DNA of 64,000 nucleotides from an uncultured Spirochaetota bacterium. GTDB lineage: Bacteria; Spirochaetota; Spirochaetia; SZUA-6; Fen-1364. A model generated the notes under the pieces. It ran no database searches and was not told the origin of the DNA. It was given only the letters and a program-made list of their open reading frames with translations. Where the stretch lies: contig CAVTHO010000006.1 of NCBI GenBank assembly GCA_963734545.1, positions 1-64,000 of the forward strand, given 5' to 3'. Both the position numbers and the translations under genes were made by a program. Of this stretch, positions 2,226 through 25,568 are shown piece by piece; the stretch's first letter is position 1; each line of letters begins with the position of its first letter.

Positions 2226-2341
2226 CCATAACAAATCGTTGCAGTTGTCCGCCTGGGTGCGGCCTGCTCAGGAAGAATGCGGTCCGTGGAACGGGCGCAT
2301 AGCGGTCTGATTCGGGGCGGCAACTGAACTCTATGTTATGA
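2226..2341 (+). repeat. attC-like site 2
   Basis: CCATAAC...GTTATGA, TCCGCC/GGCGG arm variant. Confidence 0.9.
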
Positions 2342-2642
2342 TGCGCCAAGTTATGAACTCATTGGTGGATGGCTGGGCTACCTCGGTGCAGAAGGTCAGG
2401 CCTCCCTGCCTGACCTTCTGCACCTTTAGCAATCGTGGTAAGGTGTCACTTTTTGCATGAACTACTTCCACTATCGGGGCCGGAAAAGCTTGACAAGCGC
2501 CTTGCGGCGGACATCGAGTCGGGCCACTCACAAAGGCGCCGCATCATCTGCTAGTGCAAAAGGTTTGTGATTTGTGAAAAGCACGCCCTCTTTTCGGAGA
2601 AGATATAGATAGCGACCTACGAATGCTCCGGAAACCGGGCTT

Positions 2643-3065
2643 CTACGATGATTTACTTCGTAAAGCCATAAGGGCCTCTCTGCAATCTTCTTGCTTGATG
2701 TAGAGAATGACCCCGTAGCCTCCATTTATGTGAGCGATCCCACTAGATTCATCAACATTAATGTTGGCTTGAGATAATTTTTCGTATATTGCGGCTAAAG
2801 CTCCTATTTCTTCATCACCTTTGACCAATATTGCAGAATATGGTCCATCTACTTTGAATCCGCGTTTGTCTGCTACCTCGGCCATTTTTTGCGCATTATC
2901 AGAAAAAAGTGTGATTAATGCTTGTTTCCCTTCTATAGTAATGGCTTTATACGCAAGAAAGTCTATTCCACTACTTGCAAGTGTAGAGAGTAGTTTAGAA
3001 GCATCACTAACTCGATATTCAACCACGATGTTGGCGTATTCAATTTGTCTGACATTGAAAATCAT
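2643..3065 (-). CDS. ACT-domain-like protein (antisense cassette gene)
   Basis: 140 aa; GALAAIYEKLSQANINV motif typical of tandem ACT proteins; AAGGAG RBS. Confidence 0.7.
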   Translation of the reverse strand: MIFNVRQIEYANIVVEYRVSDASKLLSTLASSGIDFLAYKAITIEGKQALITLFSDNAQKMAEVADKRGFKVDGPYSAILVKGDEEIGALAAIYEKLSQANINVDESSGIAHINGGYGVILYIKQEDCREALMALRSKSS

Positions 3066-3226
3066 ATAATCTCCTTAACTATGAATCAACACACATTGCA
3101 TGATTAGACACAAACAGCGATTTAGCAGGCCCACCTCCAAGAGTTGGCAGCAAGAAGTTAGTGTAAGTTCCCACGCCCTCGCCATCCGTGGCTCGGGCGC
3201 AGTTTTCGGGTAGAGGGGTTGGCGCA

Positions 3227-3343
3227 TCATAACCTGTCGTTGCAGTTGTCCCCTAAGATGCTGCCTGGAACAGTGAATGCAGCCTCGCAATTCCACGTTA
3301 GCGCTGTGTTGATACGGCGGGGCAACTGAACTCTATGTTAGGA
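3227..3343 (+). repeat. attC-like site 3
   Basis: TCATAAC...GTTAGGA. Confidence 0.9.
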
Positions 3344-3424
3344 CGCAAGAGGGTCCGCTTCGCACGCATTGGAGACCGCTCTTACGCATGAGTACTCTCG
3401 TTCGGCCAGCTACGAGGCGATGCC

Positions 3425-3453
3425 TTGACAGGTAACCCTATTTAGTTTACATT
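3425..3453 (+). promoter_or_regulatory. Sigma70-type promoter of TA cassette
   Basis: TTGACA-17 bp-TACATT, 5 nt before the ATG at 3459. Confidence 0.55.
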
Positions 3454-3458
3454 GAGTC

Positions 3459-3722
3459 ATGTACGAGGTTCTGGTGCCGAGGAAGGTGCTGAAGCGCATC
3501 GAAAGGATGCCAGAATCGATACAGGACCGAATGGCCGACCTTCTACGCGACCTGAAAGAGGCCGGCCCACTTCAACCCGGTTGGCCAAATTATGGAACGC
3601 TTGGCCCGGGCCGGTATCACTGCCATCTATCCTACAAATGGGTGGCCTGCTGGTATCACGAAAAGGGTACCATCCGAATCGAGGTGTACTATGCTGGCAG
3701 TCGTGAAGACGCCCCATATTAG
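3459..3722 (+). CDS. RelE/HigB-like toxin
   Basis: 87 aa; YHCHL...WVACW...IEVYYAGSRE; upstream of an HTH gene. Confidence 0.7.
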   Translation: MYEVLVPRKVLKRIERMPESIQDRMADLLRDLKEAGPLQPGWPNYGTLGPGRYHCHLSYKWVACWYHEKGTIRIEVYYAGSREDAPY

Positions 3723-4132
3723 GATCCGCATCGAAGGTAAGATTCCGTCCCGGCTCATCACGGTACTCAAGAAGGAGTACGGCAAAGGGGTACGGCTGGT
3801 AGACGACACCGAGACGAATGACGAGCTGGTTGACGTGTTCCAGACCGACTGGTACAAGCGGACCAAGGGAAGGCTTACTCCTGGCAAGAACCTGAGGATT
3901 TACCGGCAAAACTCGAAGATGACTCAGGCGCAACTGGGCAAGCTCATTGGCTCTACCGAAGCAGTATGTTTCGAACATGGAAAATGATATTCGATCCATA
4001 AGCAAGAACATGGCAATCAAGCTCGCTGCAATCTTCAAGACGTCGGTCGGCAAGATTCATAGGATAGGTAGTCCCAAGGGCAGCGATTTCGGCGCCTTGC
4101 GTCCTAACAAATCGTTGGAGCAGTCGCCTTAA
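3691..4132 (+). pseudogene. XRE HTH antitoxin (HigA-like), frameshifted near 3950
   Basis: PGKNLRIYRQNSKMTQAQLGKLIG continues in another frame as LPKQYVSNMENDIRSISKNMAIKLA. Confidence 0.7.
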
Positions 4133-4218
4133 GGGCTGTTCTGAACCTTGAGTGCAGCCCCGTAAGGAACCTCGGCCCGAGGGCGTGGTCGGCGGCGCTG
4201 CTCAACTCTATGTTATCC
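4102..4218 (+). repeat. attC-like site 4
   Basis: GTTGGAGCAGTCGCC / GGCGCTGCTCAAC covarying arms. Confidence 0.88.
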
Positions 4219-4311
4219 CGCTCCAAGAGAGCCTTTTGCAGCGCACCGTGAACTTCTCATAAAAGGGTAGGCCAGCTGCCCTCAAAGCCAATTAATGATG
4301 CGGAGCGTGCC

Positions 4312-4638
4312 TTACTCCAGCTCAAGAGCGATAGAAAGGGCCTTATCTAATTCCGAAACCTTGGCCGATCCGAGTCGACCTACAAAATCGCTAAGGGCGG
4401 ACTTAGGTATGCTGACCAATTCATCACAGTGGATGGAACTTGCATGTTTGAGACCAACTTCAACTCCGACTGCCACTTGTGTGGACAAGCCATCATAGGC
4501 TGTGTAGATGGGAGCGCACGTGACAGAAGAAAACTGGGAATCAATCAAAACTTGACGACTGACAATTACGAACACACGAGATCTGCGGGGATCATTACGA
4601 TTCCCCTTGTAAACGCGAAAGAGCTCTGCTCTTTTCAA
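4312..4638 (-). CDS. mazF: PemK/MazF-family toxin
   Basis: [14 protein letters not shown]...VTCAPI...[18 protein letters not shown]. Confidence 0.85.
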
Positions 4639-4871
4639 CCTCGAAGCTCCACCTGGTACCCAAGGACGTCTTCTGCTTCCTTATTAAGCTTTTCTGATAG
4701 CCTGTTGATTGTCCTAAGGTCGGAAGAATCTCTTTTTTTCCGCTTCAGGATTTCAAGATATGTCCTCACGGCCAACTCTATGAATGCAGATCGGTTGGAC
4801 TCTCCTTCAGCATGTTGATCAATCAGAGCAACAATGTCTCTGGAAAGCGTAACTGATGTCTTTACCTTCAT
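4635..4871 (-). CDS. RHH antitoxin paired with MazF
   Basis: [10 protein letters not shown]...[11 protein letters not shown]; overlaps the toxin start. Confidence 0.8.
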
Positions 4872-4960
4872 ACCACAAGGGTACCACCAATGTCTTCCAA
4901 AGTCAATAATTGAAATGGTTTTGAGAAACGAATAGCGTATTGTGCAGAACAAAGAGAGCG

Positions 4961-5077
4961 GGATAACAAATCGTTGCAGTTGTCCCCTAAGAGGCCGTCT
5001 GGAACGGCGAATGCAGCCTGGCAATTCCACGTAAGTGCTGTGTTGATGCGGCGGGGCAACTGAACTCTATGTTAGGT
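4961..5077 (+). repeat. attC-like site 5
   Basis: GGATAAC...GTTAGGT. Confidence 0.9.
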
Positions 5078-5147
5078 AGGCGAAACGCATGATGGGCTGC
5101 GGCGCACCGTTGGATTCTGCCTGCGAAACTGGGAAGAGTGACTCCAC

Positions 5148-5955
5148 ATGAAACAATCAGAGGTCGCCAAACTACGCAAAACTGATATTGATCGTCTCCG
5201 CGAAAAAGCCGCCGCGTACGTAGATGGCATCGCCAAGGAAGCACTTTCAGCGGTGTTGCTGTCGGGAAGCGTAGCGCGAGGTGACTTCTTTCCAGGCAGA
5301 CTAGGTGGAATGATCGACCTTACGGTATTCAAGAAGCCAAACAGCTTCATAACTGCAGAGGAGCTATTTGGAAAGAACGAAGATCCAGAAATCCCATATC
5401 ACTGCGTGAATCGGGAAGGTGACTGGTACCAGATATGGTTCAGCGAGATACCTAACGCTGAAAGCTATAGACTACTGCCGGAGGCTAGGAAATACGCTTT
5501 GGCTGAGTCCAGTGTGCTGTGGCAAGCCGACGGAGCATACTCAGACGTAGATAGCGAGTTCAGGAGGATTGCATCGGAGGAAACGGCAGACCGGCTTCAA
5601 GGCACGACTTGGCGGAATAGGGTACCTCCTCTCGGACTACAAGGTGGACCGATGGCAAAGGCGGAAGGAACGCGGACAATTGCATTTCAACCTTAATGCA
5701 GCGATTGATCTCGCGATTGGCTGTCTTTGCAACATGAATGGGAAGTACGTTCCAGCATCCGATCGAGCTGTGTATTACAGCTATGAACTTGAAAAGAAAC
5801 CGTTGCGCTACGAGAACCTACTTAAAAGATTGATGAATATCAGGCTTGATTCCATCCGGAACTACAGGAATAGAGACGGACTATTCAGATCCGAGTTCCT
5901 AAGGTTCCTAGAGGAACGGCGCCTACCTAACAAATCGTTGCACTTGTCCGCCTGA
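5148..5955 (+). pseudogene. Nucleotidyltransferase-fold protein, frameshifted near 5590
   Basis: LSGSVARGD...IDLTV motif; ORFs 5148-5696 and 5569-5955 overlap; the second reads into site 6. Confidence 0.65.
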
Positions 5956-6038
5956 GCACCGGTTGGAACCGCTGGCATGGTCCGCAGAACCGAGAGTGCG
6001 TAGCGTGGTCGGGGCGGCAAGTGAACTCTATGTTAGAC
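5925..6038 (+). repeat. attC-like site 6
   Basis: GTTGCACTTG / CAAGTGAAC compensatory pair. Confidence 0.9.
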
Positions 6039-6057
6039 GCCCCTTTAAGAGGCAGGT

Positions 6058-7041
6058 ATGGAACCGTCGAGTGCAGATGAACTCGCAAGACTGTTGTTTG
6101 AGGCAACAGAAGGTCAAGGGCCAAGGGCCGATTCAAAGGAAGTGATAGCCCGATTTAAGCGGCTAGAGATGGGCCTTCCTGCTGAGGATGAATTTGCCCT
6201 CATGCTTGCGTGGCTGGGCAAATGTAGGCTTGTGCACAGACTAGACCAACAGCAATCACCTCCAGAATCACGGTCGAACTACCAGGTACCAGACCTGCTG
6301 GCGATCTTTGACTTTGAAGGCAAGGAATTGCCTGTATTGATAGAAGTGAAGACGTCGAAAAAGAAGCGCCTGTCTTGGAAAGTTCAGTATTGGGACAAAC
6401 TGAAGCGGTACGCCGGGGCAGTCCAACTCCCAATTCTAGTCGCCTGCAAATGGACCGAGGCCGGCCTTTGGTCACTAGTTGATTTGGATTGCTTCGATGC
6501 ATCAGAAGCAACGAAGAAGCTTCAATTTGCAGATGCCGTGCAAAATGATTTGTTGGGCATCCTTGCTGGCAATTTCTATTATACATTTCAGCCGAGAGTA
6601 GGACTTCACCTAAAGTTCGAAAAAATCTCCGAAGCGCCTTCGGAAGAACCGGATACCCGCACTTATAGAATGATTGTCAGAGAGGCCTACTTCTACAACT
6701 CGAAAGGGGAGGTGCGAGCGAAATTGGCAAACTGGCTCTTCCCGATGTTTCTAGACTATGATCACGAAACCAGAACTGTAGACGGCGATAAATTCCTTGA
6801 CCAGGACTACTTCATTCCTGATCCCGCGGCAATGCAAATAGCATACAAGCTGTTGCCTCAAGTGGTGAGGGGATTGGCGCAAGGACAGAAGCCACATTGG
6901 CGGAAGCTACTGCGCGATTGCGATTTTGCTATTTCATGTCCGGAGCTGCAACGTAGCGCCTCGAAGGAATTTGAGACAGGTATGCTTCAATACATAATGG
7001 AATACCGTCCAAAGCAATTGCCGTCCTTCCTAACGGGCTGA
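6058..7041 (+). CDS. PD-(D/E)XK nuclease-domain protein
   Basis: VPDLLA...LIEVKT motif; stop codon supplied by the IS481 terminal TGA. Confidence 0.7.
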   Translation: MEPSSADELARLLFEATEGQGPRADSKEVIARFKRLEMGLPAEDEFALMLAWLGKCRLVHRLDQQQSPPESRSNYQVPDLLAIFDFEGKELPVLIEVKTSKKKRLSWKVQYWDKLKRYAGAVQLPILVACKWTEAGLWSLVDLDCFDASEATKKLQFADAVQNDLLGILAGNFYYTFQPRVGLHLKFEKISEAPSEEPDTRTYRMIVREAYFYNSKGEVRAKLANWLFPMFLDYDHETRTVDGDKFLDQDYFIPDPAAMQIAYKLLPQVVRGLAQGQKPHWRKLLRDCDFAISCPELQRSASKEFETGMLQYIMEYRPKQLPSFLTG

Positions 7042-8386
7042 ATGAGCCAAGGACATAGGTTACAAAACATTCTAAAGACATAGGTAACACTTATTCTAAG
7101 GACATGGGTAACACTTTCCTGCCAAAGGAGGGTGCCAGCCATGCCGTGGGAGGGTGTTACTGTGAGCGAGCAGCGTGAGAACTTGATTCGGGACTACGCC
7201 GACGGTTACTACAGCAAAACCGAGCTGGCCGAACGTTTCGGAGTTTCGCGTAAGACCGTACATAAGTGGATCAACCGCTTCAAGGCCGAAGGGCTGAAGG
7301 GGATAGAGGAGCTCAGTCGGCGGCCACGTAGCTGCCCCTGGCAGACTGACAAACGGATTGTTGAGGACCTGGTTGCGCTGCGCAAAGCATCTCCGTCGAG
7401 GGGGCCGAAGAAGCTCCTGGGGAAACTGCGTAAGCTACACCGCTTTGTTGAATTGCCTGCGGAGTCCACCGTGGCGCACATTTTGGATCGCCACGGACTG
7501 GTGAAAGCCAAACGACGGCACCGCCGCGCGCATCCAGGCTGTCCCAAGCATGCGGCCACGGCTCCCAACGACATCTGGGCGGCTGACTATAAAGGGCAGT
7601 TCCGACTGAAGAACGGGCAGTATTGCTTCCCGCTGACCGTGAGTGATCTGTATTCGCGCTTTCTGCTGGGCTGCGAGGCACACCCAGCGATCTCGATGGA
7701 GCAGACAATTGCCTTCTTTCTGCGGCTTTTCCGCATCTATGGGCTGCCCAATCGGATCCGCACGGACAACGGAGTGCCATTTGCCTCGTGCGCGTTGGGA
7801 CGGTTGTCGGCGCTGCAGGTGGTGTACATCAAGTACGGGGTCTGCCCGGAACTGATTGAGCCTGGCAAGCCCCAACAGAATGGGATCCATGAGCGCATGC
7901 ATCGGACTCTCAAGCAAGAGGCCACTATTCCGCCCGCCAGCAGCCTGAGAGCTCAGCAGCGGAAGTTCGATTCGTTTCGGGAGGAGTTCAACACCGATCG
8001 TCCCCATGAAGCACTTGGGATGGTTGATCCGGTCAGCGTGTATCAGTCGTCGCCCCGGGAAATGCCCGAGCACGTTGGCACCTACGACTATCCGGGACAC
8101 TACCTGGTTCGGCGCGTGAGCCGCTGTGGTACGATCCGCGTCTTCCACAACCAAGTCTTCGTGACACAGACGCTGAACGAAGAATACGTGGGCCTGGAGG
8201 AAGTAGACGACGGAGTCTATGACTTGTACTTCTGCTTCTACCAGATTGGCCGTTACGAATTGCAGACCAACAGGATCGTGGATATTATCTCGAGGGTGCC
8301 AACGAGTCAGACCCGTGCGGAGCTGACTCCGAGAGTGTTACCTATGTCTTTAGAATAAAGTGTTACCTATGTCCTTGGATTGTACA
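7039..8386 (+). mobile_element. IS481-family element type A, copy 2
   Basis: Same ends and transposase as copy 1. Confidence 0.9.
7132..8358 (+). CDS. IS481-family transposase
   Basis: Identical translation to 963-2189. Confidence 0.92.
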   Translation: MPAMPWEGVTVSEQRENLIRDYADGYYSKTELAERFGVSRKTVHKWINRFKAEGLKGIEELSRRPRSCPWQTDKRIVEDLVALRKASPSRGPKKLLGKLRKLHRFVELPAESTVAHILDRHGLVKAKRRHRRAHPGCPKHAATAPNDIWAADYKGQFRLKNGQYCFPLTVSDLYSRFLLGCEAHPAISMEQTIAFFLRLFRIYGLPNRIRTDNGVPFASCALGRLSALQVVYIKYGVCPELIEPGKPQQNGIHERMHRTLKQEATIPPASSLRAQQRKFDSFREEFNTDRPHEALGMVDPVSVYQSSPREMPEHVGTYDYPGHYLVRRVSRCGTIRVFHNQVFVTQTLNEEYVGLEEVDDGVYDLYFCFYQIGRYELQTNRIVDIISRVPTSQTRAELTPRVLPMSLE

Positions 8387-8394
8387 GCCGGGCG

Positions 8395-8510
8395 TTATAA
8401 CAAATCGTTGCAGTTGTCCCCTTAGGTGCTGACTGGAACGGTGTATGCAACTTGGCAATTCCATGGAGTTTTGGCCTGATGCGGCGGGGCAACTGAACTC
8501 TATGTTAGGT
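8395..8510 (+). repeat. attC-like site 7
   Basis: TTATAAC...GTTAGGT. Confidence 0.9.
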
Positions 8511-8597
8511 CCCCCAATATACGCAGAAAACTGGTTGCTTATCCAGGATTCGTATTATGGTTGCCTGGACTGAAAGACGCTGAGTATTGTCCTATCA

Positions 8598-9392
8598 ATG
8601 AGATTTCCTACTCAAACCCATGAAAGGGTAGCTGAGCTATTCGCTGGATTTTGCAGAAACAGAAAAGTGGTCGACACCGTTCTGGTGGTCAATTCATGTG
8701 CTAGGGGCGTTGCTACTCCCCAAAGTGATCTCGATATGGCTGCGCTTGTGAAAGTGAGCACATCTGATTCGGAACTATTGGAATTGGAAGCGTCCTGGGC
8801 CAGATTTGCTTCGAGAAGCGCGCTTGTCGCACAGTTTATGGACATGGGACCATACTGCAAATTGCATGTAGACTTCTTCAATGGAGCATTTGTTCCCGCG
8901 GTCTGGGATGAAGGTGGCGGTCCGGATTCATTCGAAATAGAAATAGGAAACAGAATCGCACATTCAGCTGCTTTACAGCAACCCGGACCTTATTTCGAGG
9001 AGCTAAGGCGGCAATGGCTTCCGTATTATGGCAGCGAACTGCGGGCTAGTAGAATCGATATGGTTCGTCAGGCGTGCAACTATCACCTGGAGTACATTAA
9101 GCTTTTGCACCTTAGGAGCTTACACTTCCATGCGTTTGATCAGCTGTATAAAGCCTACCAAGAGTTTCTGCAAGGGGTATTTATCTCAAGACAAACATAC
9201 CCGATCGCTTACAACAAATGGATTTACGAACAAGTTGTTGAATGGCTGGAGCTGCCTGATTTGTATGACGAACTGCTAAGAATCCCGACAGTAGCCGATT
9301 TGGAAGGGGATGACGTCTTGTTGAAGGCCAGGGCGCTTCGTGACCTGCTTGAGTATTGGGTAAAACCTATCAGATCAGAAACTGATGAGTAG
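8598..9392 (+). CDS. Nucleotidyltransferase-domain protein
   Basis: VNSCARGVATPQSDLD motif; C-terminal YPIAYNKWI helical domain. Confidence 0.75.
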   Translation: MRFPTQTHERVAELFAGFCRNRKVVDTVLVVNSCARGVATPQSDLDMAALVKVSTSDSELLELEASWARFASRSALVAQFMDMGPYCKLHVDFFNGAFVPAVWDEGGGPDSFEIEIGNRIAHSAALQQPGPYFEELRRQWLPYYGSELRASRIDMVRQACNYHLEYIKLLHLRSLHFHAFDQLYKAYQEFLQGVFISRQTYPIAYNKWIYEQVVEWLELPDLYDELLRIPTVADLEGDDVLLKARALRDLLEYWVKPIRSETDE

Positions 9393-9428
9393 GTTTCAGG
9401 ACAATGAGCGCAAAACAGCAGCAGGGGG

Positions 9429-9543
9429 ACCTAACAAATCGTTGCAGTAGTCGCCTTAAAGGCCGTCTAAATCGGACGGTGCAGTTCCGAATTCCATGCA
9501 GTGCTGGGTTGATGCGGCGGCGCTACTGAACTCTATGTTACAT
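9429..9543 (+). repeat. attC-like site 8
   Basis: GTAGTCGCC / GGCGCTAC arm variant. Confidence 0.9.
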
Positions 9544-9995
9544 GCCCCAAAATGACAAAACGCGCACCTATCGAGAACGGTTGGCTACATCCATATTCAT
9601 TGAATAGAAGAATCCCGCTTTTGCAGTGGGAAATTTCTGCTGCCTAGATTGGACATAAGTAGCACCCGAGATATTGAAAACAACACATGGCAGGCTGTTG
9701 CCTAACAAAAGGATGAGACAACGGTAAGCCGGATGATTGTAAGCATTGATGTGCTGTATGCCTAGGAAATTGCGCTCCCAGGGCGGTGTATTGCGCAAAA
9801 GAAAACTAATCACGCACAAGCGTGGGCTGCATTAATCTTATCCGCTGGCGCGGAAGATTGGAGGCCGTTCTATCGGAATTGACGTTGTATTCACGGTCTA
9901 TCTTGATCGGTGATGTATTAGAACAAAAGGAATTGTGCAGTTTGCATTCCGCCCACGCAATAGAATGGCTTGAAAAGAGCGGTGGGGCATGTAAC
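9537..9995 (+). other. ORF-less cassette, copy A
   Basis: GTTACATGCCCCA...TGGGGCATGTAAC; closely similar copy at 24201-24661; no ORF conserved between them. Confidence 0.75.
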
Positions 9996-10105
9996 AAATC
10001 GTTGCAGTTGTCCCCTAAGAGGCCGCCTGGGATTGGTGAATGCAGCTTGGCAATCCGATTCAGTGCAGTGTTGATGCGGCGGGGCAACTGAACTCTATGT
10101 TATGA
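9989..10105 (+). repeat. attC-like site 9
   Basis: ATGTAAC...GTTATGA. Confidence 0.9.
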
Positions 10106-10225
10106 CGCCTCAGGGATCGGGAAGATCGGGCGGCACCATGTGGGCTGGAGAGGAAGGGCGGGCGTCCATGCCCGCCCTTCCCCTTGGGCCCGGACGAGTT
10201 CATCAATCTCCCGGAGAGGGCGACC

Positions 10226-18232: not shown

Positions 18233-18241
18233 ACGGGATGA

Positions 18242-18357
18242 ACATAACAAATCGTTGGAGCCGTCCCCTAAGAGGCTGCCTGGAACCATGGGCTATGTCT
18301 GAATGAACCGCCGCCGCTGTGCTGTGGTCGGCGGGGCGGCTCAACTCTATGTTAGGC
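18242..18357 (+). repeat. attC-like site 12
   Basis: GTTGGAGCCGTCCCC / GGGGCGGCTCAAC covarying arms. Confidence 0.88.
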
Positions 18358-18617
18358 ATTACTTGGCCTTGTTAGCGGGCCTAATGATAAGAAAACGCGT
18401 GAAAGCGCCATGGAACCGCAATATATGCCATTGGTTCCGGTTGCAGCTTGCGCCAGCTAGGCTATCGCGACTGAAAGAGTCGTCTTTACGATGAAGAACT
18501 GACTTCAGTCGCATCGACAAGAAGCTAAAATCTCAAACTTGCGACCTCACTGTGTGTGGGATATTTCTTGACTATTGAAAAATGGGTGCATAAGATTTAC
18601 CAAGAGGTGTAAATACA

Positions 18618-19016
18618 TTGAATACAGTTAAGAAGATCACAAAGAATATAGAAACGAAAGTGAAACTCTCAATGCTCTGGCTGGTTGCAATGCTCACATA
18701 CACATACGGCGACGTTGTAACCTTGATGGACCCGGTCAAGCATGGCTCGATGCAGCTGACGCAAGGATTCTTATTGGGAGCCTCTATATTTATGACAATT
18801 CCTATTGCGATGGTTCTCTTCTCCCGCATTCTAAATCATCGAGCAAACCGACTGGCAAACATAATTACGGGCTCCATTATGACAGTTGCGTTGATCGGCA
18901 CGTTGTTCGTCGCAGTGCCGGCAATGTATTACGTCTATTTCACCGCAATAGAAATTGCCTGTACTTCACTGGTCGTAGTATATGCCTCCAAATGGTCTAT
19001 CGGCGAGGAAGCTTAA
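18618..19016 (+). CDS. Small four-TM membrane protein (DUF6326-like)
   Basis: KLSMLWLVAMLTYTYGDV...NRLANII; GAGGTG RBS. Confidence 0.65.
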   Translation: MNTVKKITKNIETKVKLSMLWLVAMLTYTYGDVVTLMDPVKHGSMQLTQGFLLGASIFMTIPIAMVLFSRILNHRANRLANIITGSIMTVALIGTLFVAVPAMYYVYFTAIEIACTSLVVVYASKWSIGEEA

Positions 19017-19221
19017 AAAAGCGCTGCGGCCGCCGCTTGATTTGCTCAGTGTGGCAGGCATTTTCAAAGCAAGAGCATGCCTTTCACTGTTTTGAATAGG
19101 GCACCAGGGTCATTCAACTCTAGCCGCATGGTCCGTACCGTTCCACGGGCAAGAACCCACTGCAGACGCCCAGCAAAAAGTATAGAGACGCTTAGGCAGG
19201 GCTCCGATCAACAGAATAATG

Positions 19222-20310
19222 CCTGAGTTCAAGATCGAAGTGCAATAATCAGGAGCGTTCATAGTATACCTCCTGTGGTGGTCTGAAGCCATGGCGCTTT
19301 CTTGGTCTGGCGTTGAGTCTGTTGGAGATTGCCTCGCAATAGGCTTGGGTGACCCCGGACATCGAGACCCCTTTGGGAATGTATTGGCGGATTAACCCGT
19401 TAAGGTTCTCGTTGCTGCCTCGTTCCCAGGAGTGATAGGGGGTAGCGAAATAGCATTGCAAAGGAAAGTGTTGCTCGAGAACCTTGTAGTCATGGAACTC
19501 AGTTCCGTTGTCGAACGTGATTGTCTTGAACTTGGCTCTGTGCGCTGAGATTGCCTCTATGGCGGCTTGATTCACGGAAGCCGCCGTGCGAGAGCTCAGC
19601 TTCCGGATGATAGCGAATCCTGATTTTCGTTCCACAAGGGTTAGGATGCAATTGTGAAGGTCCGTTCCTATTACAGTGTCACCCTCCCAGTGGCCCAGCT
19701 GCATCCTGGTTTCAACCTCGGGCGGACGCTCCGAGATGTGGCGCTTGCCGGCCAGGATTCCTCGCGAATCCCTTGATCTGTAGCGTTTTCTGTGGGTCTT
19801 GGTAACGATTCGCAGGTGCTTGAAAAGCGTGCCTCCATGCTTTTCGTCATCGTAGATGAACTGGTAGATGGTTTCGTGGCTAACGGTGAACGATCCGTTG
19901 CGACGTAAGGACCCAGAAATCTGTTCGGGGCTGAAGTCCTGCTCGAGCAAAGCGATCACCTCTTGCCAGTAGCGGGGAGCCATGTGAAAGCCACGGCGGG
20001 ACCGTTTTCGCCTGGTGGTAGCATAACTGTGGGCAAGATCCGCACGGTACCAACCATCAACGATCTTCTTGTTACGAGCAATCTCGCGACTGATTGTGCT
20101 GGGGGAGCGCTGAAGAGCTCTGGCAATGGCGGAAATGGTAGAGTGCCTATTGCGGAACTCGGTAATGGTGTAGCGTTCATCTTGAGAGAGTTGATGATAT
20201 CTACGCAAGTATGGATCCCCTTTCTTGGCGGAAAAGTGACACGTACCCAAGTAGCATCTCGACTCTCTCATTTGGTTTCCAGACCCTTGCACTTACTTCT
20301 TGAATCCGCG
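19222..20310 (-). mobile_element. IS30-family element type A, copy 1 (1089 bp, 3-bp ATG target duplication)
   Basis: 24-bp imperfect IRs CCTGAGTTCAAGATCGAAGTGCAA / TTGCACTTACTTCTTGAATCCGCG. Confidence 0.92.
19249..20292 (-). CDS. IS30-family transposase (likely TTG start at 20208)
   Basis: SPSTISREI, SPEQIS, GHWEGDTV, TITFDNGTEF, SWERGSNENLNGLIRQY. Confidence 0.93.
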   Translation of the reverse strand: MQGSGNQMRESRCYLGTCHFSAKKGDPYLRRYHQLSQDERYTITEFRNRHSTISAIARALQRSPSTISREIARNKKIVDGWYRADLAHSYATTRRKRSRRGFHMAPRYWQEVIALLEQDFSPEQISGSLRRNGSFTVSHETIYQFIYDDEKHGGTLFKHLRIVTKTHRKRYRSRDSRGILAGKRHISERPPEVETRMQLGHWEGDTVIGTDLHNCILTLVERKSGFAIIRKLSSRTAASVNQAAIEAISAHRAKFKTITFDNGTEFHDYKVLEQHFPLQCYFATPYHSWERGSNENLNGLIRQYIPKGVSMSGVTQAYCEAISNRLNARPRKRHGFRPPQEVYYERS

Positions 20311-20312
20311 AT

Positions 20313-20428
20313 GCCTAACAAATCGTTGCAGTTGTCCGCCTGGGTGCAGTGTGTTAAGTGTTAATGCAGTCTGTCGAACCGTCGCATAGCTATTTGATTC
20401 GGGGCGGCAACTGAACTCTATGTTATGT
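20313..20428 (+). repeat. attC-like site 13
   Basis: GCCTAAC...GTTATGT. Confidence 0.9.
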
Positions 20429-20549
20429 TCATCTAAAAATGATGGAGCACTCTTCGAGGTGCCTTCCATTCTCATTGGAGAACGCATCACCGTGCACTAC
20501 AACAAGTCTTCACTTGACGATTTTTCGAAGCCAAACATATCTTAAGTCC

Positions 20550-21200
20550 ATGCCTAAGCTAGTCGTTCGCAGTTTTACGGTCTCACTTGATGGTTATTGT
20601 GCCGCCCCCGATCAGACCCTCGAGGCGCCCTTTGGCAAGGGCGGCCTGAGGTTGATGAACTGGGCCTTTGCCACCAAGTTCTTCAGTACGATGTTCGGAA
20701 AAGAGGGCGGGGCGGAAGGCGTCGACAACGACTTTGCCTCCCATGCCGACGACAACATTGGCGCCAGCATCATGGGCCGCAATATGTTCGGCCCCTTGCG
20801 TGGCGCCTGGGCCAACGAGGATTGGAAGGGCTGGTGGGGTGAAACCCCTCCTTACCATCACCCAGTGTTCGTCGTGAGCCATCATAAGCGCGCCGCCTTT
20901 GACATGCTGGGTGGCACCAGCTTTACCTTTGTGAACGACGGCATCGAGTCTGCCCTGAAGCAGGCCTTTGCCGCAGCCAAGGGTAAGGATGCGCGCTTAG
21001 CCGGTGGTCCGTCAATCGTGAGGCAGTATTGGAAAGCAGGTTTGATTGACGAGTTGCATCTAGTCCAAGTCCCAATCATGCTTTGCCAGGGCGAGAGGCT
21101 GTTTGAGGGCCTAGAAGGCGTGGAAGAGCGGTATGAAGTCGCTGAATTCACCCCCTCCAAGTCGGTGGCCCATCTCCGTGTCGTAAAAAGAAAGGCCTAA
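20550..21200 (+). CDS. Dihydrofolate reductase / RibD C-terminal family protein
   Basis: SLDGY...IMGRNMF...WWGETPPYHHPVFV...AGLIDEL. Confidence 0.88.
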   Translation: MPKLVVRSFTVSLDGYCAAPDQTLEAPFGKGGLRLMNWAFATKFFSTMFGKEGGAEGVDNDFASHADDNIGASIMGRNMFGPLRGAWANEDWKGWWGETPPYHHPVFVVSHHKRAAFDMLGGTSFTFVNDGIESALKQAFAAAKGKDARLAGGPSIVRQYWKAGLIDELHLVQVPIMLCQGERLFEGLEGVEERYEVAEFTPSKSVAHLRVVKRKA

Positions 21201-21301
21201 GAACTCCTAAGACGTCACTATTGACGCCCTGCCGGGTGGAGCATACGATCCGTCCGTTTTGGAATGGCTGATTTCCATGGGTCGGCGCTACAGCGGGATG
21301 A

Positions 21302-21416
21302 ACATAACAAATCGTTGCAGTAGTCGCCTTAAGGGCCGTCTGGAAGTGGCGGTGCAGCCCGAGAAGCCTTGGGCTTTTGGCTTCGGGCGGCGGGGCAACT
21401 GAACTCTATGTTATGT
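21302..21416 (+). repeat. attC-like site 14 (hybrid arms)
   Basis: Left arm GTAGTCGCC, right arm GGGGCAAC. Confidence 0.88.
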
Positions 21417-21572
21417 TCAACAAAGCCGCGATCAGCACAGCGGAATGCCAGCTGTCGCTTGGCACCGAGAGCATCGGCGCGGAAAGGTCTATATCGAGCG
21501 TCGACAAGGTCGGCTCTGGTAGGTGATTGACTATACGTATGCATGGTGATACTTTATACGTGGAGAATCACA

Positions 21573-21824
21573 ATGACCACGAAATTAACGCTGAGCGTCG
21601 ACAAGCGGGTAGTTCAAAGAGCCAAGGTCTTCGCTCGAAAACAAAAACAGAGCCTTTCGCAGATTGTAAACACTTATCTTGATCACATCTCGCGGCAGAT
21701 GGCCGGCGCGGAAGATATCGATCCGGAAGTGATGGAGTTGTCCGATCGAATAAAGCTTAAGGACTTGCCTGATCTCAAAGACTCCAAGTACCGGTATTTG
21801 AAAGAAAAGTACATCCATGACTAA
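21573..21824 (+). CDS. Antitoxin (DUF6364-like RHH)
   Basis: MTTKLTLSVD...AKVFARKQKQSLSQIV...YLKEKY. Confidence 0.75.
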   Translation: MTTKLTLSVDKRVVQRAKVFARKQKQSLSQIVNTYLDHISRQMAGAEDIDPEVMELSDRIKLKDLPDLKDSKYRYLKEKYIHD

Positions 21825-22245
21825 GGTCTTTATTGACACGGATGTACTGCTGGACGTCTTCCTAGAAAGAGAGCCGCATCATTCGATAGCCTTGCGTCTT
21901 CTTACGGACCTACGACGAAATGGGACAAGCTGCCTTACCTCAGCGGTCGTGCTGGCAAACATGAACTACATACTCGCCAAGGCAAAGGGCAGAGAGTACT
22001 CAGTCAACAAGTTGCGTTCCTTGCGGAGGATGGTTGGTGTCGCCCCCATCGACGAAGCGATGGTAGATGCTGCACTGGCGGCGCCACATCGCGACTTTGA
22101 AGATAGTCTCCAATTTCATTGTGCGAGTGGAAGCGGAATTGGAACGTTGATAACGCGTAACGCAAAGCACTACCCCAAGGGCCGACTTCGCGTCACAAGT
22201 CCAGTTGAGTATCTGGGATCTCAAGGTCCTGCAGAATCTGGTTGA
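21817..22245 (+). CDS. PIN-domain toxin
   Basis: VFIDTDVLLD...DFEDSLQ...LITRN. Confidence 0.88.
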   Translation: MTKVFIDTDVLLDVFLEREPHHSIALRLLTDLRRNGTSCLTSAVVLANMNYILAKAKGREYSVNKLRSLRRMVGVAPIDEAMVDAALAAPHRDFEDSLQFHCASGSGIGTLITRNAKHYPKGRLRVTSPVEYLGSQGPAESG

Positions 22246-22360
22246 ACATAACAAATCGTTGCAGTTGTCCCCTTAGAGGCTGCTCGGAACGGTGGGTGCA
22301 GCCTGGCAACTACAGGCAGTGCAGGTTGATGCGGCGGGGCAACTGAACTCTATGTTAGAA
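22246..22360 (+). repeat. attC-like site 15
   Basis: Begins directly after the PIN stop codon; ACATAAC...GTTAGAA. Confidence 0.9.
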
Positions 22361-22453
22361 CGCCCAAGAATTTTGGAAACCGACATTTGCAGCTCCCTTA
22401 CCGCCAGAATGGCTATGGCCAATTTTAAGAATGTACTATCCTGCATTTGACCG

Positions 22454-22486
22454 TTGACACAATCAGTGGTATCATATATGATACCA
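22454..22486 (+). promoter_or_regulatory. TA promoter with perfect 20-bp palindromic operator
   Basis: TTGACA-17-TATGAT; TGGTATCATATATGATACCA (22467-22486) overlaps the -10. Confidence 0.7.
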
Positions 22487-22491
22487 AGATA

Positions 22492-22917
22492 ATGGTTCCC
22501 AAAGTCGTAATGGATACTAACGTCCTGGTGGCAGGTTTGCGGTCGCAGAAAGGCGCATCATTTCGAATGCTGTCTCTGATCGACAGCGGAAAGTTCACTC
22601 TTTGCCTGTCGGTCCCTATGGTGCTGGAATACGAGGCCGCTGCCAAGAAACAAGCCCGTACAACAGGGCTGAGGACAACTGACATTGATGCCATCATCGA
22701 CTACCTATGCTTGGTGGGCCAACACTACAAGATCTATTACCTTTGGCGTCCATTCCTTAGAGACCAGAAGGATGACATGGTACTGGAGTTGGCTGTTACA
22801 TCGAATGCCAATTTGATAGTTACTTACAACAGGGCTGATTTCAAAGGAGCTGATCACTTCGGCATCAAAGTGATCACTCCCAAAGACCTCTTGACCCAAA
22901 TAGGAGTATTCCCATGA
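22492..22917 (+). CDS. PIN-domain toxin
   Basis: VVMDTNVLVAGLRS...LWRPFLRDQKDDMVLELA. Confidence 0.88.
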   Translation: MVPKVVMDTNVLVAGLRSQKGASFRMLSLIDSGKFTLCLSVPMVLEYEAAAKKQARTTGLRTTDIDAIIDYLCLVGQHYKIYYLWRPFLRDQKDDMVLELAVTSNANLIVTYNRADFKGADHFGIKVITPKDLLTQIGVFP

Positions 22918-23150
22918 GCGCCATTAGCATACGGCTTCCAGATTCACTGCACCGAAAGGTGAAGGAAGTGGCTCAAAGAGACAACGTATCGATCAACCAG
23001 ATGATTACTTTGGCAGTCGCAGAAAAGCTTTCCGCACTTGAAACGGAAGACTATCTCGAGAAGAGAGCTGGCAGAGCAAGCAAAGCCAAGTTCCGCAGAG
23101 CACTTAAGAAGATCTCATTGCGCGCTCCCGAAAAGGCCGACAGATTATAG
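22914..23150 (+). CDS. RHH (HicB-like) antitoxin
   Basis: MSAISIRLPDSLH...SINQMITLAVAEK. Confidence 0.82.
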   Translation: MSAISIRLPDSLHRKVKEVAQRDNVSINQMITLAVAEKLSALETEDYLEKRAGRASKAKFRRALKKISLRAPEKADRL

Positions 23151-23154
23151 GGCG

Positions 23155-23270
23155 TTCTAACAAATCGTTGCAGTAGTCGCCTTAAGGGCCGTCTGGAACT
23201 GTGAATGCAGCCTGGCAATTCCGTGCAGCGTTGGTTTGATGCGGCGGGGCAACTGAACTCTATGTTCTGC
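23155..23270 (+). repeat. attC-like site 16 (hybrid arms; R' = GTTCTGC)
   Basis: TTCTAAC...GTTCTGC. Confidence 0.88.
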
Positions 23271-23416
23271 GCCTTTGTAGGCCTATTGGCTCGGTTGCTT
23301 GACTAATAGCGACGCGACACTAGGTCGGAATGATCCATTGGTCGGCATGGAAACCGACTTCCACAGGTCACCAAGCTCGTGATACTATTCTTGCAGATTT
23401 GCGGTAGAGGTGAAAA

Positions 23417-23737
23417 ATGGCCGCAGCACGGAACATGGTTAGCAATCGTCAGGAAATAATAGCATATATAGACTCACATCGTGAACAGCTCCGCACCAGG
23501 TTTCATGTCCGTAAGATTGCATTGATTGGTTCTTTCGCTCGTGACGAACAGACTCCTGAAAGCGACGTGGACCTTTTGCTGGATCTTGAAGAGGGAACCG
23601 CGAGCATTTATCAATTGAAGCGCAACCTAAAGGACGAGTTGGAGCGGCAATTCGGCCGTCCGGTCGAACTTGCGTCGGAACGATATCTAAAGCCATATTA
23701 CAAAAAGCAGATTCTTCAAGAAGCTATCTATGTCTAG
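23417..23737 (+). CDS. Minimal nucleotidyltransferase (MNT) antitoxin
   Basis: IGSFARDEQTPESDVDLL. Confidence 0.88.
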   Translation: MAAARNMVSNRQEIIAYIDSHREQLRTRFHVRKIALIGSFARDEQTPESDVDLLLDLEEGTASIYQLKRNLKDELERQFGRPVELASERYLKPYYKKQILQEAIYV

Positions 23738-24074
23738 CAAAGACAGGGCGAATCTGCTCGCAATATTGGACGCTATCGCTCGTATCAACGAATACACGAA
23801 GGCTGTCGGCTCTCCTCAGGAATTCTACAAATCGTCTGTTGTATTTGATGCAACCCTTATGAACTTCATCAACATAGGAGAAATGGCTGATCGACTATCA
23901 AAACCACTAAGGGATCGGCATGTTGATGTTGACTGGCAGAGAGTGAAGGATTTCAGGAACCTCGTCGCGCACGACTATCTTGGAGTTGACGCGGAAGAGG
24001 TTTGGCAGATCATCAAGAATGATTTGCCAATTCTCCGTAGCTCAGTAAGCAATATTCTAGCGGAGCTGAAATAG
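23730..24074 (+). CDS. HEPN/DUF86 RNase toxin
   Basis: FRNLVAHDY (RxxxxH) motif; downstream of MNT. Confidence 0.88.
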   Translation: MSSKDRANLLAILDAIARINEYTKAVGSPQEFYKSSVVFDATLMNFINIGEMADRLSKPLRDRHVDVDWQRVKDFRNLVAHDYLGVDAEEVWQIIKNDLPILRSSVSNILAELK

Positions 24075-24091
24075 CGTCATAAACGGAAGGC

Positions 24092-24207
24092 GCAGAACAA
24101 ATCGTTGCAGTTGTCCCCTTGAAGGCCGTTTGGATCGGTGCATGCAGTCTGGCAATTCCATGTAGTGTTGGGTTGATGCGGCGGGGCAACTGAACTCTAT
24201 GTTACAT
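24092..24207 (+). repeat. attC-like site 17
   Basis: GCAGAAC...GTTACAT. Confidence 0.9.
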
Positions 24208-24661
24208 GCCCCAAAATGACAAAACGCGCACCTATCGAGAACGGTTGGCTACATCCATATTCATGGAATAGAAGAATCCCGCTTTTGCCGTGAGAGATTT
24301 CTGCTGCCTAGATTGGGCATACGTAGCACTCGAGATATTGAAAACAACACATGGCAGGCTGTTGCCCAACGAAAGGATGAGACAACGGTAAGCCGGATGA
24401 TTGTAGGCATTGATGTGCTGTATGCCTAGGAAATTACGCTCCTAGGGCGGTGTGTTGCGCAAAAGAAAACCAATCACGCACAAGCGTGGGCTGCATTTAT
24501 CTTATCCGCTGGCGCAGAAGATCGGCGGCCGTTCAGTCGGAATTGACGTTGTATTCACGGTCTACCATTGCTTGGTGATGTGTTGGGACAAAAGGATTTG
24601 TGCAGTTTGCATTCCGCCCACGCAATAGAATGGCTTGAAAAGAGACGGTGGGGCATGTAAC
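24201..24661 (+). other. ORF-less cassette, copy B
   Basis: Diverged duplicate of 9537-9995. Confidence 0.75.
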
Positions 24662-24770
24662 AAATCGTTGCAGTTGTCCCCTTAGAGGCCGCTCGGAACA
24701 GTGAATGCGGCCCGGCAATTCAATGAAGCCCTTGTCTGATGCGGCGGGGCAACTGAACTCTATGTTATCT
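24655..24770 (+). repeat. attC-like site 18
   Basis: Nearly identical to site 1. Confidence 0.9.
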
Positions 24771-24818
24771 CCCCCAAGAGACTTGATAGCGTTGCATCCG
24801 CGATACATATTGATGCAT

Positions 24819-25019
24819 ATGAGAACTACACTCAATATCGACAGTGGCCTTTTGAAGGAAGCAGGCAAACTGACTGGCATCTCCGAAAAGACTGCGCTCG
24901 TCAGAATGGGCCTGGAAGCGCTTATCGCGAAGGAAAGTGCGAGACGGTTGGCCGATCTTGGGGGAACCGAGAAGAAACTGTCCCCAATCCCTAGGAGACG
25001 ACCGACGAGGGTCGCATGA
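24819..25019 (+). CDS. vapB: VapB-family antitoxin
   Basis: MRTTLNIDSGLLKEA...EKTALVRMGLEALI. Confidence 0.85.
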   Translation: MRTTLNIDSGLLKEAGKLTGISEKTALVRMGLEALIAKESARRLADLGGTEKKLSPIPRRRPTRVA

Positions 25020-25378
25020 TTCTCGTAGACACCTCTGTTTGGGTTGATCATTTCAGAAATGGGAGTGCTCAACTGAAAGCTTGGCTAAATGACAACGAAG
25101 TGATCGTACATCCGTTTGTTATTGGTGAACTTGCTTGCGGCTCGATGCGAAACAGAAATGAAGTCCTGAACTTGCTATCCGAATTGCCAGAAGCGACAGT
25201 TGCGAATCACGACGAGGTTCTGACCTTTGTCGAGAACAATAGACTGCATGGAACCGGAATTGGATGGATAGACGCTCACCTCGTGGCGTCTGCTTTGCGG
25301 TCAAAAAGCAAGTTGATGACTTTAGACAAGCAGTTGTCCAGAATTGCCTCAATGCTTGGGCTGCGCCCATCGAAATAG
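25016..25378 (+). CDS. vapC: VapC PIN toxin
   Basis: MILVDTSVWVDHF...HPFVIGELACG...IDAHLVAS. Confidence 0.9.
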   Translation: MILVDTSVWVDHFRNGSAQLKAWLNDNEVIVHPFVIGELACGSMRNRNEVLNLLSELPEATVANHDEVLTFVENNRLHGTGIGWIDAHLVASALRSKSKLMTLDKQLSRIASMLGLRPSK

Positions 25379-25452
25379 AGCACAAAACAGATAGGCGCCG
25401 CGTGCTGATCAATGGATGTCACTTTCCTTTGGAAGTGGCCAATGCAGGGTGG

Positions 25453-25568
25453 AGATAACAAATCGTTGCAGTTGTCCCCTTAGAGGCTGTTTTGAACTGT
25501 GAATGCAGCCTGTCAATTGCATTCAGTCTTGGGTTGATGCGGCGGGGCAACTGAACTCTATGTTATGT
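25453..25568 (+). repeat. attC-like site 19
   Basis: AGATAAC...GTTATGT. Confidence 0.9.

What the first reader, a model, noticed from the sequence alone, without database searches (positions are those of the whole stretch)
2335..25459. Each cassette's two ends are complementary over 9-15 bp, and cores tolerate non-GTTRRRY sequences
Seen: cassette start versus reverse complement of its own end matches for GTTATGATGCGCCAA (15 bp, 2335/3233), GTTAGGACGCAAG (13), GTTATCCCGCTC (12), GTTAGGTAGGCG (12), GTTAGGTCCCCC (12), GTTACATGCCCCA (13), GTTATGACGCC (11), GTTATGTTCATC (12), GTTATGTTCAAC (12), GTTAGAACGCCC (12), GTTCTGCGCCTT (12) and GTTATCTCC (9). The minus-strand cassette 43559-44639 even has a covarying GCTAGAGCGTT core. 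This places the crossover at or near GTT and supports true mobile cassettes. The stem extends well past the canonical 7-bp R box and forms only in the excised circle. Inference: it could bias toward re-integration, or it could be a footprint of how cassettes are created.
Basis: seen in the sequence. Interest (0 to 1): 0.72.

Follow-up and report, generated by a model that had tools for sequence, protein, structure and literature searches.

The report
Integron cassette ends pair, 12 bases
Each gene cassette in this large chromosomal integron begins with about 12 bases that mirror the bases just before its own recombination site, which is the expected signature of cassettes that once closed into circles and is a known, general property of integrons rather than a new one.

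Summary
In the 14 uninterrupted cassettes of this genome, the start matches the reverse complement of the cassette's own end for 9-15 bases (median 12). The median over 600 non-own pairs is 4.

The feature is not special to this array. I measured the same thing in 9 Vibrio arrays (median 10), 5 Xanthomonas arrays (8), 8 arrays from other phyla (9) and 5 arrays from same-class, Treponema-sized genomes (8). Bouvier et al. 2009 (PMC2727003, passage read) already state that self-pairing extends beyond the 7-nt R boxes to 9-11 nt for most cassettes.

What stands out here is only the degree. Pairing is near-complete to position 12 and random from position 13. Non-GTTRRRY cores are also ordinary: 2 of 13 starts fit here and 16 of 95 in Vibrio.

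Best reading: the two ends are the halves of the attC R arm, split by the G|TT crossover, and selection keeps them paired. Among homologous cassettes in the other arrays, the arms diverge 1.5% against 7.6% for the flanks.

Unchecked notes from this scan report longer own-end stems (15-100 nt) in other genomes, next to non-IntI recombinases.

The parts
1..38153 (+). Cassette array of a sedentary chromosomal integron. It holds 24 attC hits on the + strand (22 full-length, 107-109 bp AAC..GTT). The array continues on other contigs, and intI lies on contig C5.
   Evidence: nhmmer attC profile. Site table. intI scores 403.9 bits against TIGR02249 (cut-off 265).
2335..3233 (+). Cassette with 15-nt paired ends: start arm 2335-2349, own R'' arm 3219-3233. 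Its attC body runs 3231-3339.
   Evidence: perfect match 15; sequence read
3337..4108 (+). Cassette with 13-nt paired ends (3337-3349 / 4096-4108). It holds two + strand ORFs with no Pfam hit.
4212..4967 (+). Cassette with 12-nt paired ends (4212-4223 / 4956-4967). It carries a MazF/PemK toxin gene and an RHH antitoxin gene on the minus strand. Its core GTTATCC does not fit GTTRRRY.
5071..5931 (+). Cassette with 12-nt paired ends (5071-5082 / 5920-5931)
8504..9435 (+). Cassette with 12-nt paired ends (8504-8515 / 9424-9435)
9537..9995 (+). Cassette with 13-nt paired ends (9537-9549 / 9983-9995). A duplicate lies at 24201-24661.
10099..11084 (+). Cassette with 11-nt paired ends (10099-10109 / 11074-11084). 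It carries a PIN-domain gene.
20422..21308 (+). Cassette with 12-nt paired ends (20422-20433 / 21297-21308). It carries a RibD_C-domain gene.
21410..22252 (+). Cassette with 12-nt paired ends (21410-21421 / 22241-22252). It carries a DUF6364 + PIN gene pair.
22354..23161 (+). Cassette with 12-nt paired ends (22354-22365 / 23150-23161). It carries a PIN-domain gene.
23264..24098 (+). Cassette with 12-nt paired ends and the non-canonical core GTTCTGC (23264-23275 / 24087-24098). It carries a nucleotidyltransferase + HepT gene pair.
24201..24661 (+). Cassette with 13-nt paired ends (24201-24213 / 24649-24661). It duplicates the cassette at 9537-9995.
24764..25459 (+). Cassette with 9-nt paired ends (24764-24772 / 25451-25459). 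It carries a VapB + PIN gene pair.
870..2227 (+). IS481-like insertion sequence (408-aa transposase). Its right end lies 11-14 nt upstream of the AAC of an attC. Further copies sit at about 7039-8396 and 30435-31792. A second related type sits at about 16885-18245 and 34081-35353.
19222..20310 (-). IS30-like insertion sequence (347-aa transposase, HTH_38 + rve domains) inserted 6 nt upstream of the AAC, inside the extended R'' arm. Further copies sit at about 28366-29454 and 31792-32880.
   Evidence: Removing this copy together with a 3-bp duplication restores an 11-nt match.
43460..44740 (-). Minus-strand cassette with compensated GCT/AGC in place of GTT/AAC (11-nt pairing GCTAGAGCGTT)
   Evidence: An earlier scan note, e1-6621068, covers the same cassette.

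Best explanation
The window holds most of a large sedentary chromosomal integron array. Each cassette is the unit TT...(gene)...attC...G.

When a cassette is excised and circularised, its first bases (TT plus about 9 more) join the G at its far end. This completes the R' half of its own attC site. That half pairs with the R'' half, the bases ending in AAC just upstream of the attC body, to form the R arm of the folded single-stranded site that the integron integrase binds and cleaves.

Integration at G|TT splits the arm again. In the array the two halves therefore lie at opposite ends of the cassette.

The paired arm is longer than the 7-nt consensus because the integrase most likely needs a duplex of about 11 bp outward from the cleavage point. 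What is constrained is the pairing, not the sequence, so the arms covary between cassettes.

Shown here: the complementarity, its own-versus-non-own specificity, a step-like end at position 12, its presence in all four comparison groups of arrays, and slow evolution of the arms. Inferred: that the integrase footprint sets the length.
For: (1) Own pairs give 9-15 nt in 14 of 14 uninterrupted cassettes, against a median of 4 in 600 non-own pairs.

(2) Per-position complementarity in the 13 unique cassettes is 0.92-1.00 for positions 1-12 and 0.08-0.38 for positions 13-20. This is a fixed-length arm, not a decaying palindrome.

(3) The same pattern appears elsewhere. Vibrio: 9 arrays, n=95, median 10. 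Xanthomonas: 5 arrays, n=62, median 8. Other phyla: 8 arrays, n=24, median 9. Same-class 2.7-2.9 Mb genomes: 5 arrays, n=42, median 8, with a sharp stop after position 8. Another same-phylum genome, G349: n=5, median 12. In the four groups, pairing is down to random level by position 13.

(4) A canonical integron integrase is present at 403.9 bits against a cut-off of 265. Its closest solved structure is 2A3V, IntI4, at E 1.7e-80.

(5) The modelled circle junctions fold with 12 R-arm pairs against 9 in the array, with mean ddG -9.5 kcal/mol.

(6) Across 220 ordered pairs of homologous cassettes from the other arrays, the arms differ at 1.5% of sites, the flanks at 7.6% and the interiors at 9.3%. 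Ten positions are compensated and 24 are one-sided.

(7) Literature: pairing extends to 9-11 nt for most cassettes (Bouvier 2009, passage). The AAC triplet is the only conserved stretch (Nivina 2016, passage).
Against: No direct evidence here shows that IntI contacts positions 8-12. The 11-bp-arm analogy with XerC/D is recalled, not tested.

Eleven of the 25 intervals pair for only 4-9 nt. Computational removal of the insertion sequence restored pairing in 1 of 4 cases tried, so the other three are unexplained rearrangements.

The homologous-pair statistic rests on a few large paralogue families, its pairs are not independent, and it excludes this window's cassettes.

The arrays were found with a home-made attC finder that misses heterogeneous arrays. 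It misregistered one array (L042), which I left out of the counts.

No circle junction was observed.
Confidence: 0.82

Rival explanations
1. The complementary ends are a footprint of cassette genesis. The process that first joins a gene to an attC would create an inverted duplication of fixed length at the two ends, and this simply persists.
For: Cassette genesis is unsolved (my knowledge of the field; the listing shows only that 6 papers hold the term). A step-like, lineage-specific length (8, 10 or 12) is what a templated process could also give.
Against: The arms evolve about five times more slowly than the adjacent flanks in homologous cassettes that differ by about 9% inside. At least one compensated change is seen, C to T on both arms in a Vibrio paralogue family. 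A neutral relic should decay at the rate of its flanks.
Confidence: 0.1
2. The matches reflect a conserved consensus around the attC core shared by all cassettes (for example GTTAKGACGCCC), not cassette-specific pairing.
For: A weak consensus exists. In-array hairpins still form a median of 9 R-arm pairs in the minimum-energy fold. Several starts share GTTATGACGCC-like strings.
Against: Non-own pairs have median 4 against 12 for own pairs. In the comparison arrays, same-site pairs (a site's own upstream arm against the next cassette's start) have median 3-7.5. Arms as different as GTTATCCCGCTC, GTTAGGTAGGCG and GTTCTGCGCCTT are each perfectly matched.
Confidence: 0.02
3. The long stem is an adaptation that tilts the balance toward insertion. 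A circle with a perfect 12-bp arm is a better substrate than the hybrid in-array sites, so cassettes here are captured readily but excised rarely.
For: ddG of -9.5 kcal/mol in favour of the circle form. The stem here is longer than in Vibrio, Xanthomonas or other phyla, with Mann-Whitney p about 1e-5 for each comparison.
Against: The same asymmetry exists in every integron, and the field knows it (Loot 2017, Methods passage). No rate data exist for this system. The many insertion sequences in the array suggest low activity for other reasons.
Confidence: 0.06

Closest known systems
attC sites (59-base elements) of sedentary chromosomal integrons, e.g. the Vibrio repeats (VCRs)
   Same: AAC...GTT ends, paired L and R boxes, an unpaired central spacer and two bulged bases on the 3' arm of the bottom strand. 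Sites are 107-109 bp long and highly similar within the array. Cassettes are 0.45-1 kb and many carry toxin-antitoxin pairs. Own-end complementarity extends beyond the 7-nt box, measured here in 9 Vibrio-genus arrays at median 10. Bouvier 2009 gives 9-11 nt.
   Different: Pairing is saturated to 12 nt in nearly every uninterrupted cassette, against 9-11 in Vibrio. The bulged bases on the bottom strand are C and A in 17 of 22 sites, rather than the typical G and T (Nivina 2020, passage). The integrase carries a roughly 180-aa proline-rich N-terminal extension.
Integrons of the same class: 2.7-2.9 Mb genomes, Treponema-sized and unnamed in the tool
   Same: Same phylum and class by the tool's kinship labels. 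Canonical IntI scores and own-end pairing are both present.
   Different: Their attC sites are about 58 bp. Pairing stops sharply at 8 nt (position 9 matches in only 0.07 of 42 cassettes). The array lies past the 3' end of intI, which is the inverted layout. Here the array lies upstream of the 5' end of intI.
Integron-like arrays with very long private stems noted earlier by this scan (CPR, archaeal, Dehalococcoidia-like)
   Same: Each cassette's ends are complementary (AI notes, unchecked).
   Different: Those stems are reported as 15-100 nt and lie beside recombinases said to lack the IntI-specific domain. Here the stem is 12 nt and the integrase is canonical.

Membership tests
Integron (IntI + attC cassette array) | Integron integrase that passes the curated family model | tested here: met
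   TIGR02249 scores 403.9 bits against a cut-off of 265 at G000:C5:2875-3807. The best solved relative is 2A3V, IntI4, at E 1.7e-80.
Integron (IntI + attC cassette array) | Array of attC sites in one orientation next to intI, lying upstream of it and read divergently | tested here: met
   Two attC hits on the minus strand of C5, at 339-449 and 1181-1284, lie upstream of the + strand intI. The array continues on C6 (the window), C9 and C3. Contig breaks prevent a continuous view.
attC site | Imperfect palindrome bounded by AAC and GTT, with paired L and R boxes, an unpaired central spacer and extrahelical bases on the 3' arm of the bottom strand | tested here: met
   22 full-length sites. DNA folding of the bottom strand shows two single-base bulges on the 3' arm in 17 of 22 sites. 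The bulged bases are C and A, not the typical G and T.
attC site | R' consensus GTTRRRY | tested here: not met
   Only 2 of 13 unique cassette starts fit GTTRRRY. The same holds for 16 of 95 in Vibrio arrays, so this consensus is loose in accepted integrons and does not exclude membership.
Mobile gene cassette | The start is complementary to the cassette's own R'', not the neighbour's, which places the crossover at G|TT | tested here: met
   Own median 12 against non-own median 4.
Mobile gene cassette | Excision as a covalently closed circle, with the junction at GTT | not testable with these tools
   Only assembled contigs of other metagenomes were available. They show attC sites joined to other sequence within 0-7 nt after GTT. 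The matched sides are under 30 nt, so this is weak.

The most novel reading that the evidence does not exclude
The length of the paired R arm is a tightly set, lineage-specific parameter of each integron. I measured about 8 nt in the Treponema-sized spirochaete genomes and about 8 in Xanthomonas (where pairing falls off gradually up to position 12), 10-11 in Vibrio, and 12 here and in one other genome of the phylum. In every group measured, pairing is at random level by position 13. On this reading the length co-evolves with the integrase, which here has a long N-terminal extension and reads C/A instead of G/T bulged bases. It would set how much better a circle is as a substrate than an in-array site, and so where the system sits between cassette capture and cassette loss.
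Probability: 0.25. Interest if true: 0.45.

Novelty: new member of a known kind. Interest (0 to 1): 0.22.

Why it matters
The finding itself is the classical signature that defined cassette boundaries and the G|TT crossover, so it mainly confirms that this genome carries a canonical, once-active integron. An earlier scan note (unchecked) calls the genome a soil or wetland spirochaete.

The modest added value is quantitative. Across the 28 comparison arrays, own-end pairing has a sharp upper limit of 12 nt and a preferred length that differs by lineage, and the arms are under purifying selection. This suggests that attC models and synthetic attC designs using a 7-bp R box leave out constrained positions.

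Tried and rejected
(1) Restoring pairing by removing insertion sequences in a script worked for 1 of 4 cases. The IS30-like copy at 19222 with a 3-bp duplication went from 9 to 11 nt. It failed for IS_B2, IS_A1 and IS_A2, which remain unexplained; I guess that recombination between insertion-sequence copies joined unrelated cassette halves.

(2) My structural attC finder found no usable array in the five E. mendocina, two Motiliproteus and one Marinomonas regions (L096-L103), nor in most of the 79 intI loci. In many of those loci intI sits at a contig edge. This shows only the limits of the method.

(3) L042 (Aquabacterium) was registered on an inner AAC/GTT pair, which gave 3-nt matches. By eye, the true boxes lie further out. 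I dropped it from all pooled counts.

(4) L024 and L082 had no interval of 1.5 kb or less and were left out of the pooled groups.

(5) Rowe-Magnus 2003 and Sundstrom 1991, the sources Bouvier cites for the 9-11 nt figure, are not held in the library. I did not see them.

(6) Laying contigs of four metagenome runs gave no circle junction. The short joints near GTT and AAC have sides under 30 nt and may come from other organisms carrying the same attC family.

(7) My first version of the arm-divergence statistic was circular, because the paired length was defined from both cassettes. One search replaces it.

(8) I did not measure mobile (class 1) integron cassettes on plasmids.

(9) I did not work out the target-site duplication of the IS481-like element from its three copies.
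Full report
WHAT IS THERE

The window is the first 64 kb of contig C6 of a 5.1-Mb, 10-contig genome. From position 1 to about 38150 the + strand carries an integron cassette array. An nhmmer profile built from 22 attC sites of the window finds 37 hits in the genome. They lie in the window, at the start of C5, at the end of C9 and in a small cluster on C3.

C5 carries the integron integrase. It scores 403.9 bits against TIGR02249, whose cut-off is 265. The gene encodes 499 aa, with a proline-rich N-terminal extension. Its closest solved relative is 2A3V, IntI4, at E 1.7e-80. The two attC sites on C5 lie upstream of intI and read away from it, which is the classical layout.

The sites are 107-109 bp from AAC to GTT. 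They have a paired L box, a 5-nt unpaired spacer and two bulged bases.

Cassettes are 0.45-1 kb. Where Pfam gives a name, they mostly hold toxin-antitoxin pairs: MazF with RHH, VapB or DUF6364 with PIN, and nucleotidyltransferase with HepT. Two kinds of insertion sequence have repeatedly landed next to the AAC end of attC sites. One is IS481-like with a 408-aa transposase. The other is IS30-like with a 347-aa transposase.

CHECKING THE OBSERVATION

For each of the 25 intervals between consecutive full-length sites, I compared the bases from the G of GTT onward with the reverse complement of the bases ending in the next AAC.

- All 12 strings in the finding are confirmed, with the stated lengths.
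- The 14 intervals of 1 kb or less give 9, 11, 12 (seven times), 13 (four times) and 15.
- The 11 longer intervals (1.9-5.5 kb) give 4-9.
- The 600 non-own pairs have median 4, which is the invariant GTTA. Eleven reach 9 or more. By eye these look like duplicated or near-identical ends, though I did not trace each pair.

The pairing is therefore cassette-specific and far beyond chance. The GCT/AGC cassette on the minus strand is also as described. An earlier scan note had already treated it.

There is a logical limit to what the pairing shows. It flanks the segment between two attC bodies symmetrically. It would therefore look the same whichever neighbouring attC belonged to the cassette, and it places the crossover only within the invariant GTTA. 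Orientation has to come from the position of intI and from the fact that most ORFs lie on the + strand.

IS IT SPECIAL TO THIS ARRAY?

I collected comparison arrays in three ways:
- 79 loci around intI relatives in public genomes;
- 20-kb stretches next to intI in Vibrio-genus and Xanthomonas-genus genomes;
- 20-kb stretches next to intI in genomes of the window's own phylum.

I found attC sites with a home-made finder. It looks for AAC...GTT with paired inner arms, then builds a per-locus nhmmer profile. On the window at threshold 14, the finder recovered 20 of the 22 seed sites, one of them in a shifted register, plus five other candidates.

The table below counts unique intervals of 1.5 kb or less.

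| Group | Arrays | n | Median | Pairing profile |
|---|---|---|---|---|
| This genome | - | 13 | 12 | 0.92-1.00 for positions 1-12, then 0.08-0.38 |
| Vibrio genus | 9 | 95 | 10 | 0.98 or more to position 8, falling to 0.21 at position 13 |
| Xanthomonas genus | 5 | 62 | 8 | gradual fall, about 0.5 at position 12 and 0.26 at 13 |
| Other phyla | 8 | 24 | 9 | 0.92 or more to position 8, 0.29 by position 12 |
| Same-class 2.7-2.9 Mb genomes | 5 | 42 | 8 | abrupt stop after position 8 |
| Same-phylum genome G349 | 1 | 5 | 12 | near 1.00 to position 11, 0.80 at 12, then random |

In the 25 arrays (all groups in the table except the last two), non-own medians were 3-7. Same-site medians, meaning a site's own upstream arm against the next cassette's start, were 3-7.5.

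Own-end pairing beyond the invariant core is therefore general. In most lineages it runs past 7 nt, and no group shows pairing above random at position 13. This genome sits at the top of the range. The difference from each of the three groups is significant by one-sided Mann-Whitney test, at p about 1e-5, although cassettes within an array are not fully independent.

Departure from GTTRRRY is just as ordinary. Starts fit the consensus in 2 of 13 cassettes here, 16 of 95 in Vibrio, 44 of 62 in Xanthomonas and 33 of 42 in the same-class genomes.

IS IT IN PRINT?

Yes. Bouvier et al. [quoted passage not shown] They cite Rowe-Magnus 2003 and Sundstrom 1991. The library does not hold those two papers, and I did not see them.

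Loot et al. 2017 (PMC5371416, Methods passage) note that in the array the variable 4 bp of R' need not be complementary to R''. Nivina et al. 2016 (PMC5027507, passage) state that only the AAC triplet is conserved among all sites.

My own measurements in Vibrio arrays (9-11 nt) reproduce the published figure. The 12-nt saturation seen here lies just above it.

HOW IT MOST LIKELY WORKS

The two ends of a cassette are the halves of the attC R arm. In the circle, the G at the 3' end of the cassette is followed by the cassette's own first bases. The arm ...AAC / GTT... is then fully paired.

I modelled the 13 circle junctions in a script. They fold with a median of 12 R-arm pairs against 9 for the in-array sites, and are on average 9.5 kcal/mol more stable. 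The in-array sites keep partial pairing because the arms share a loose consensus (roughly GTTAKGACGCCC).

Two results argue that a defined length of duplex is required and that the arms are not a decaying remnant. The first is the step-like end of pairing. The second is the behaviour of homologous cassettes in the other arrays (220 ordered pairs, interior divergence 9.3%). There the arms differ at 1.5% of sites against 7.6% in the 9 nt beyond the stem, with 10 compensated and 24 one-sided positions. That count is dominated by a few paralogue families, and it excludes this window, which has only one duplicate pair.

I infer, but did not test, that the required length reflects the integrase footprint on the R arm. 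A limit of 12 nt counted from the G leaves 11 bp outward from the cleavage point. As I recall, that is the arm length of the related XerC/D sites.

WHAT REMAINS UNEXPLAINED

Eleven of the 25 intervals pair poorly. Removing the insertion sequence in a script restored an 11-nt match for only 1 of 4 cases tried. The other three are probably composites made by recombination between insertion-sequence copies, but this is not shown.

No circle junction could be observed. Contigs from four metagenome runs carry the same attC family joined to other sequence, and the similarity breaks within 0-7 nt after GTT or 1-11 nt before AAC. The matched sides are under 30 nt, so this is weak.

VERDICT

The feature that seemed novel is a published and general property of integron cassettes. 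This array is a new member of a known kind whose R arm is saturated at the upper limit of 12 nt.

Unchecked notes of this scan report much longer own-end stems in other genomes next to non-IntI recombinases. This case is not one of those.

Noticed in passing
all 22 full-length attC sites of the window, e.g. 24096-24203: The two bulged (extrahelical) bases sit on the 3' arm of the bottom strand, as in classical attC sites. Here they are C and A in 17 of 22 sites, equivalent to G and T on the top strand. The typical bases are G and T on the bottom strand (Nivina 2020, passage). A first-bulge C also occurs in two other arrays (L043, L049). An A as the second bulge was not the predominant pattern in any comparison array; the fold-based parse is noisy for the long Vibrio sites.
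   Followed up: partly
window 870-2227, 7039-8396, 30435-31792 (IS481-like); 19222-20310, 28366-29454, 31792-32880 (IS30-like); a second IS481-like type near 16885-18245 and 34081-35353: Two insertion-sequence families repeatedly landed at fixed distances from the AAC of attC sites. The IS30-like copies sit 6 nt upstream, inside the extended R'' arm. The IS481-like copies sit 11-14 nt upstream, at its outer edge. This suggests they target the attC arm. One IS30-like copy is itself inserted into the flank of an IS481-like copy at 31792.
   Followed up: partly
G000:C5:2311-3810 (locus L001:937-2436): The integron integrase has a roughly 180-aa N-terminal extension rich in proline, serine and glutamine before the conserved core. 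The function of the extension is unknown.
   Followed up: no
loci L199, L202, L203, L214 (same-class genomes of 2.7-2.9 Mb): In these arrays own-end pairing stops abruptly at 8 nt. Position 9 is complementary in only 0.07 of 42 cassettes, which is below random. The R''-side flank there carries a near-constant base. The array lies past the 3' end of intI (inverted layout).
   Followed up: partly
window 12590-12699 and 38122-38153: These are degenerate attC sites. The site at 12600 has lost its AAC/R'' core but keeps part of the own-end complement (AGGGGC). The hit at 38122 is only the last 32 nt of a site.
   Followed up: no
window 13246-17127: The 5.5-kb interval between the attC sites at 12699 and 18246 is not a simple cassette. 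It holds an acyltransferase-3 gene, a LuxR-type regulator, and IS66-family transposase fragments that are split over two frames.
   Followed up: no
cassette starts, 12-18 nt after GTT (e.g. 2347-2352, 4224-4230, 22366-22371, 24773-24780): Just past the paired arm, many cassettes begin with an A-rich motif such as CAAGA or AAAAT. The cause is not examined.
   Followed up: no
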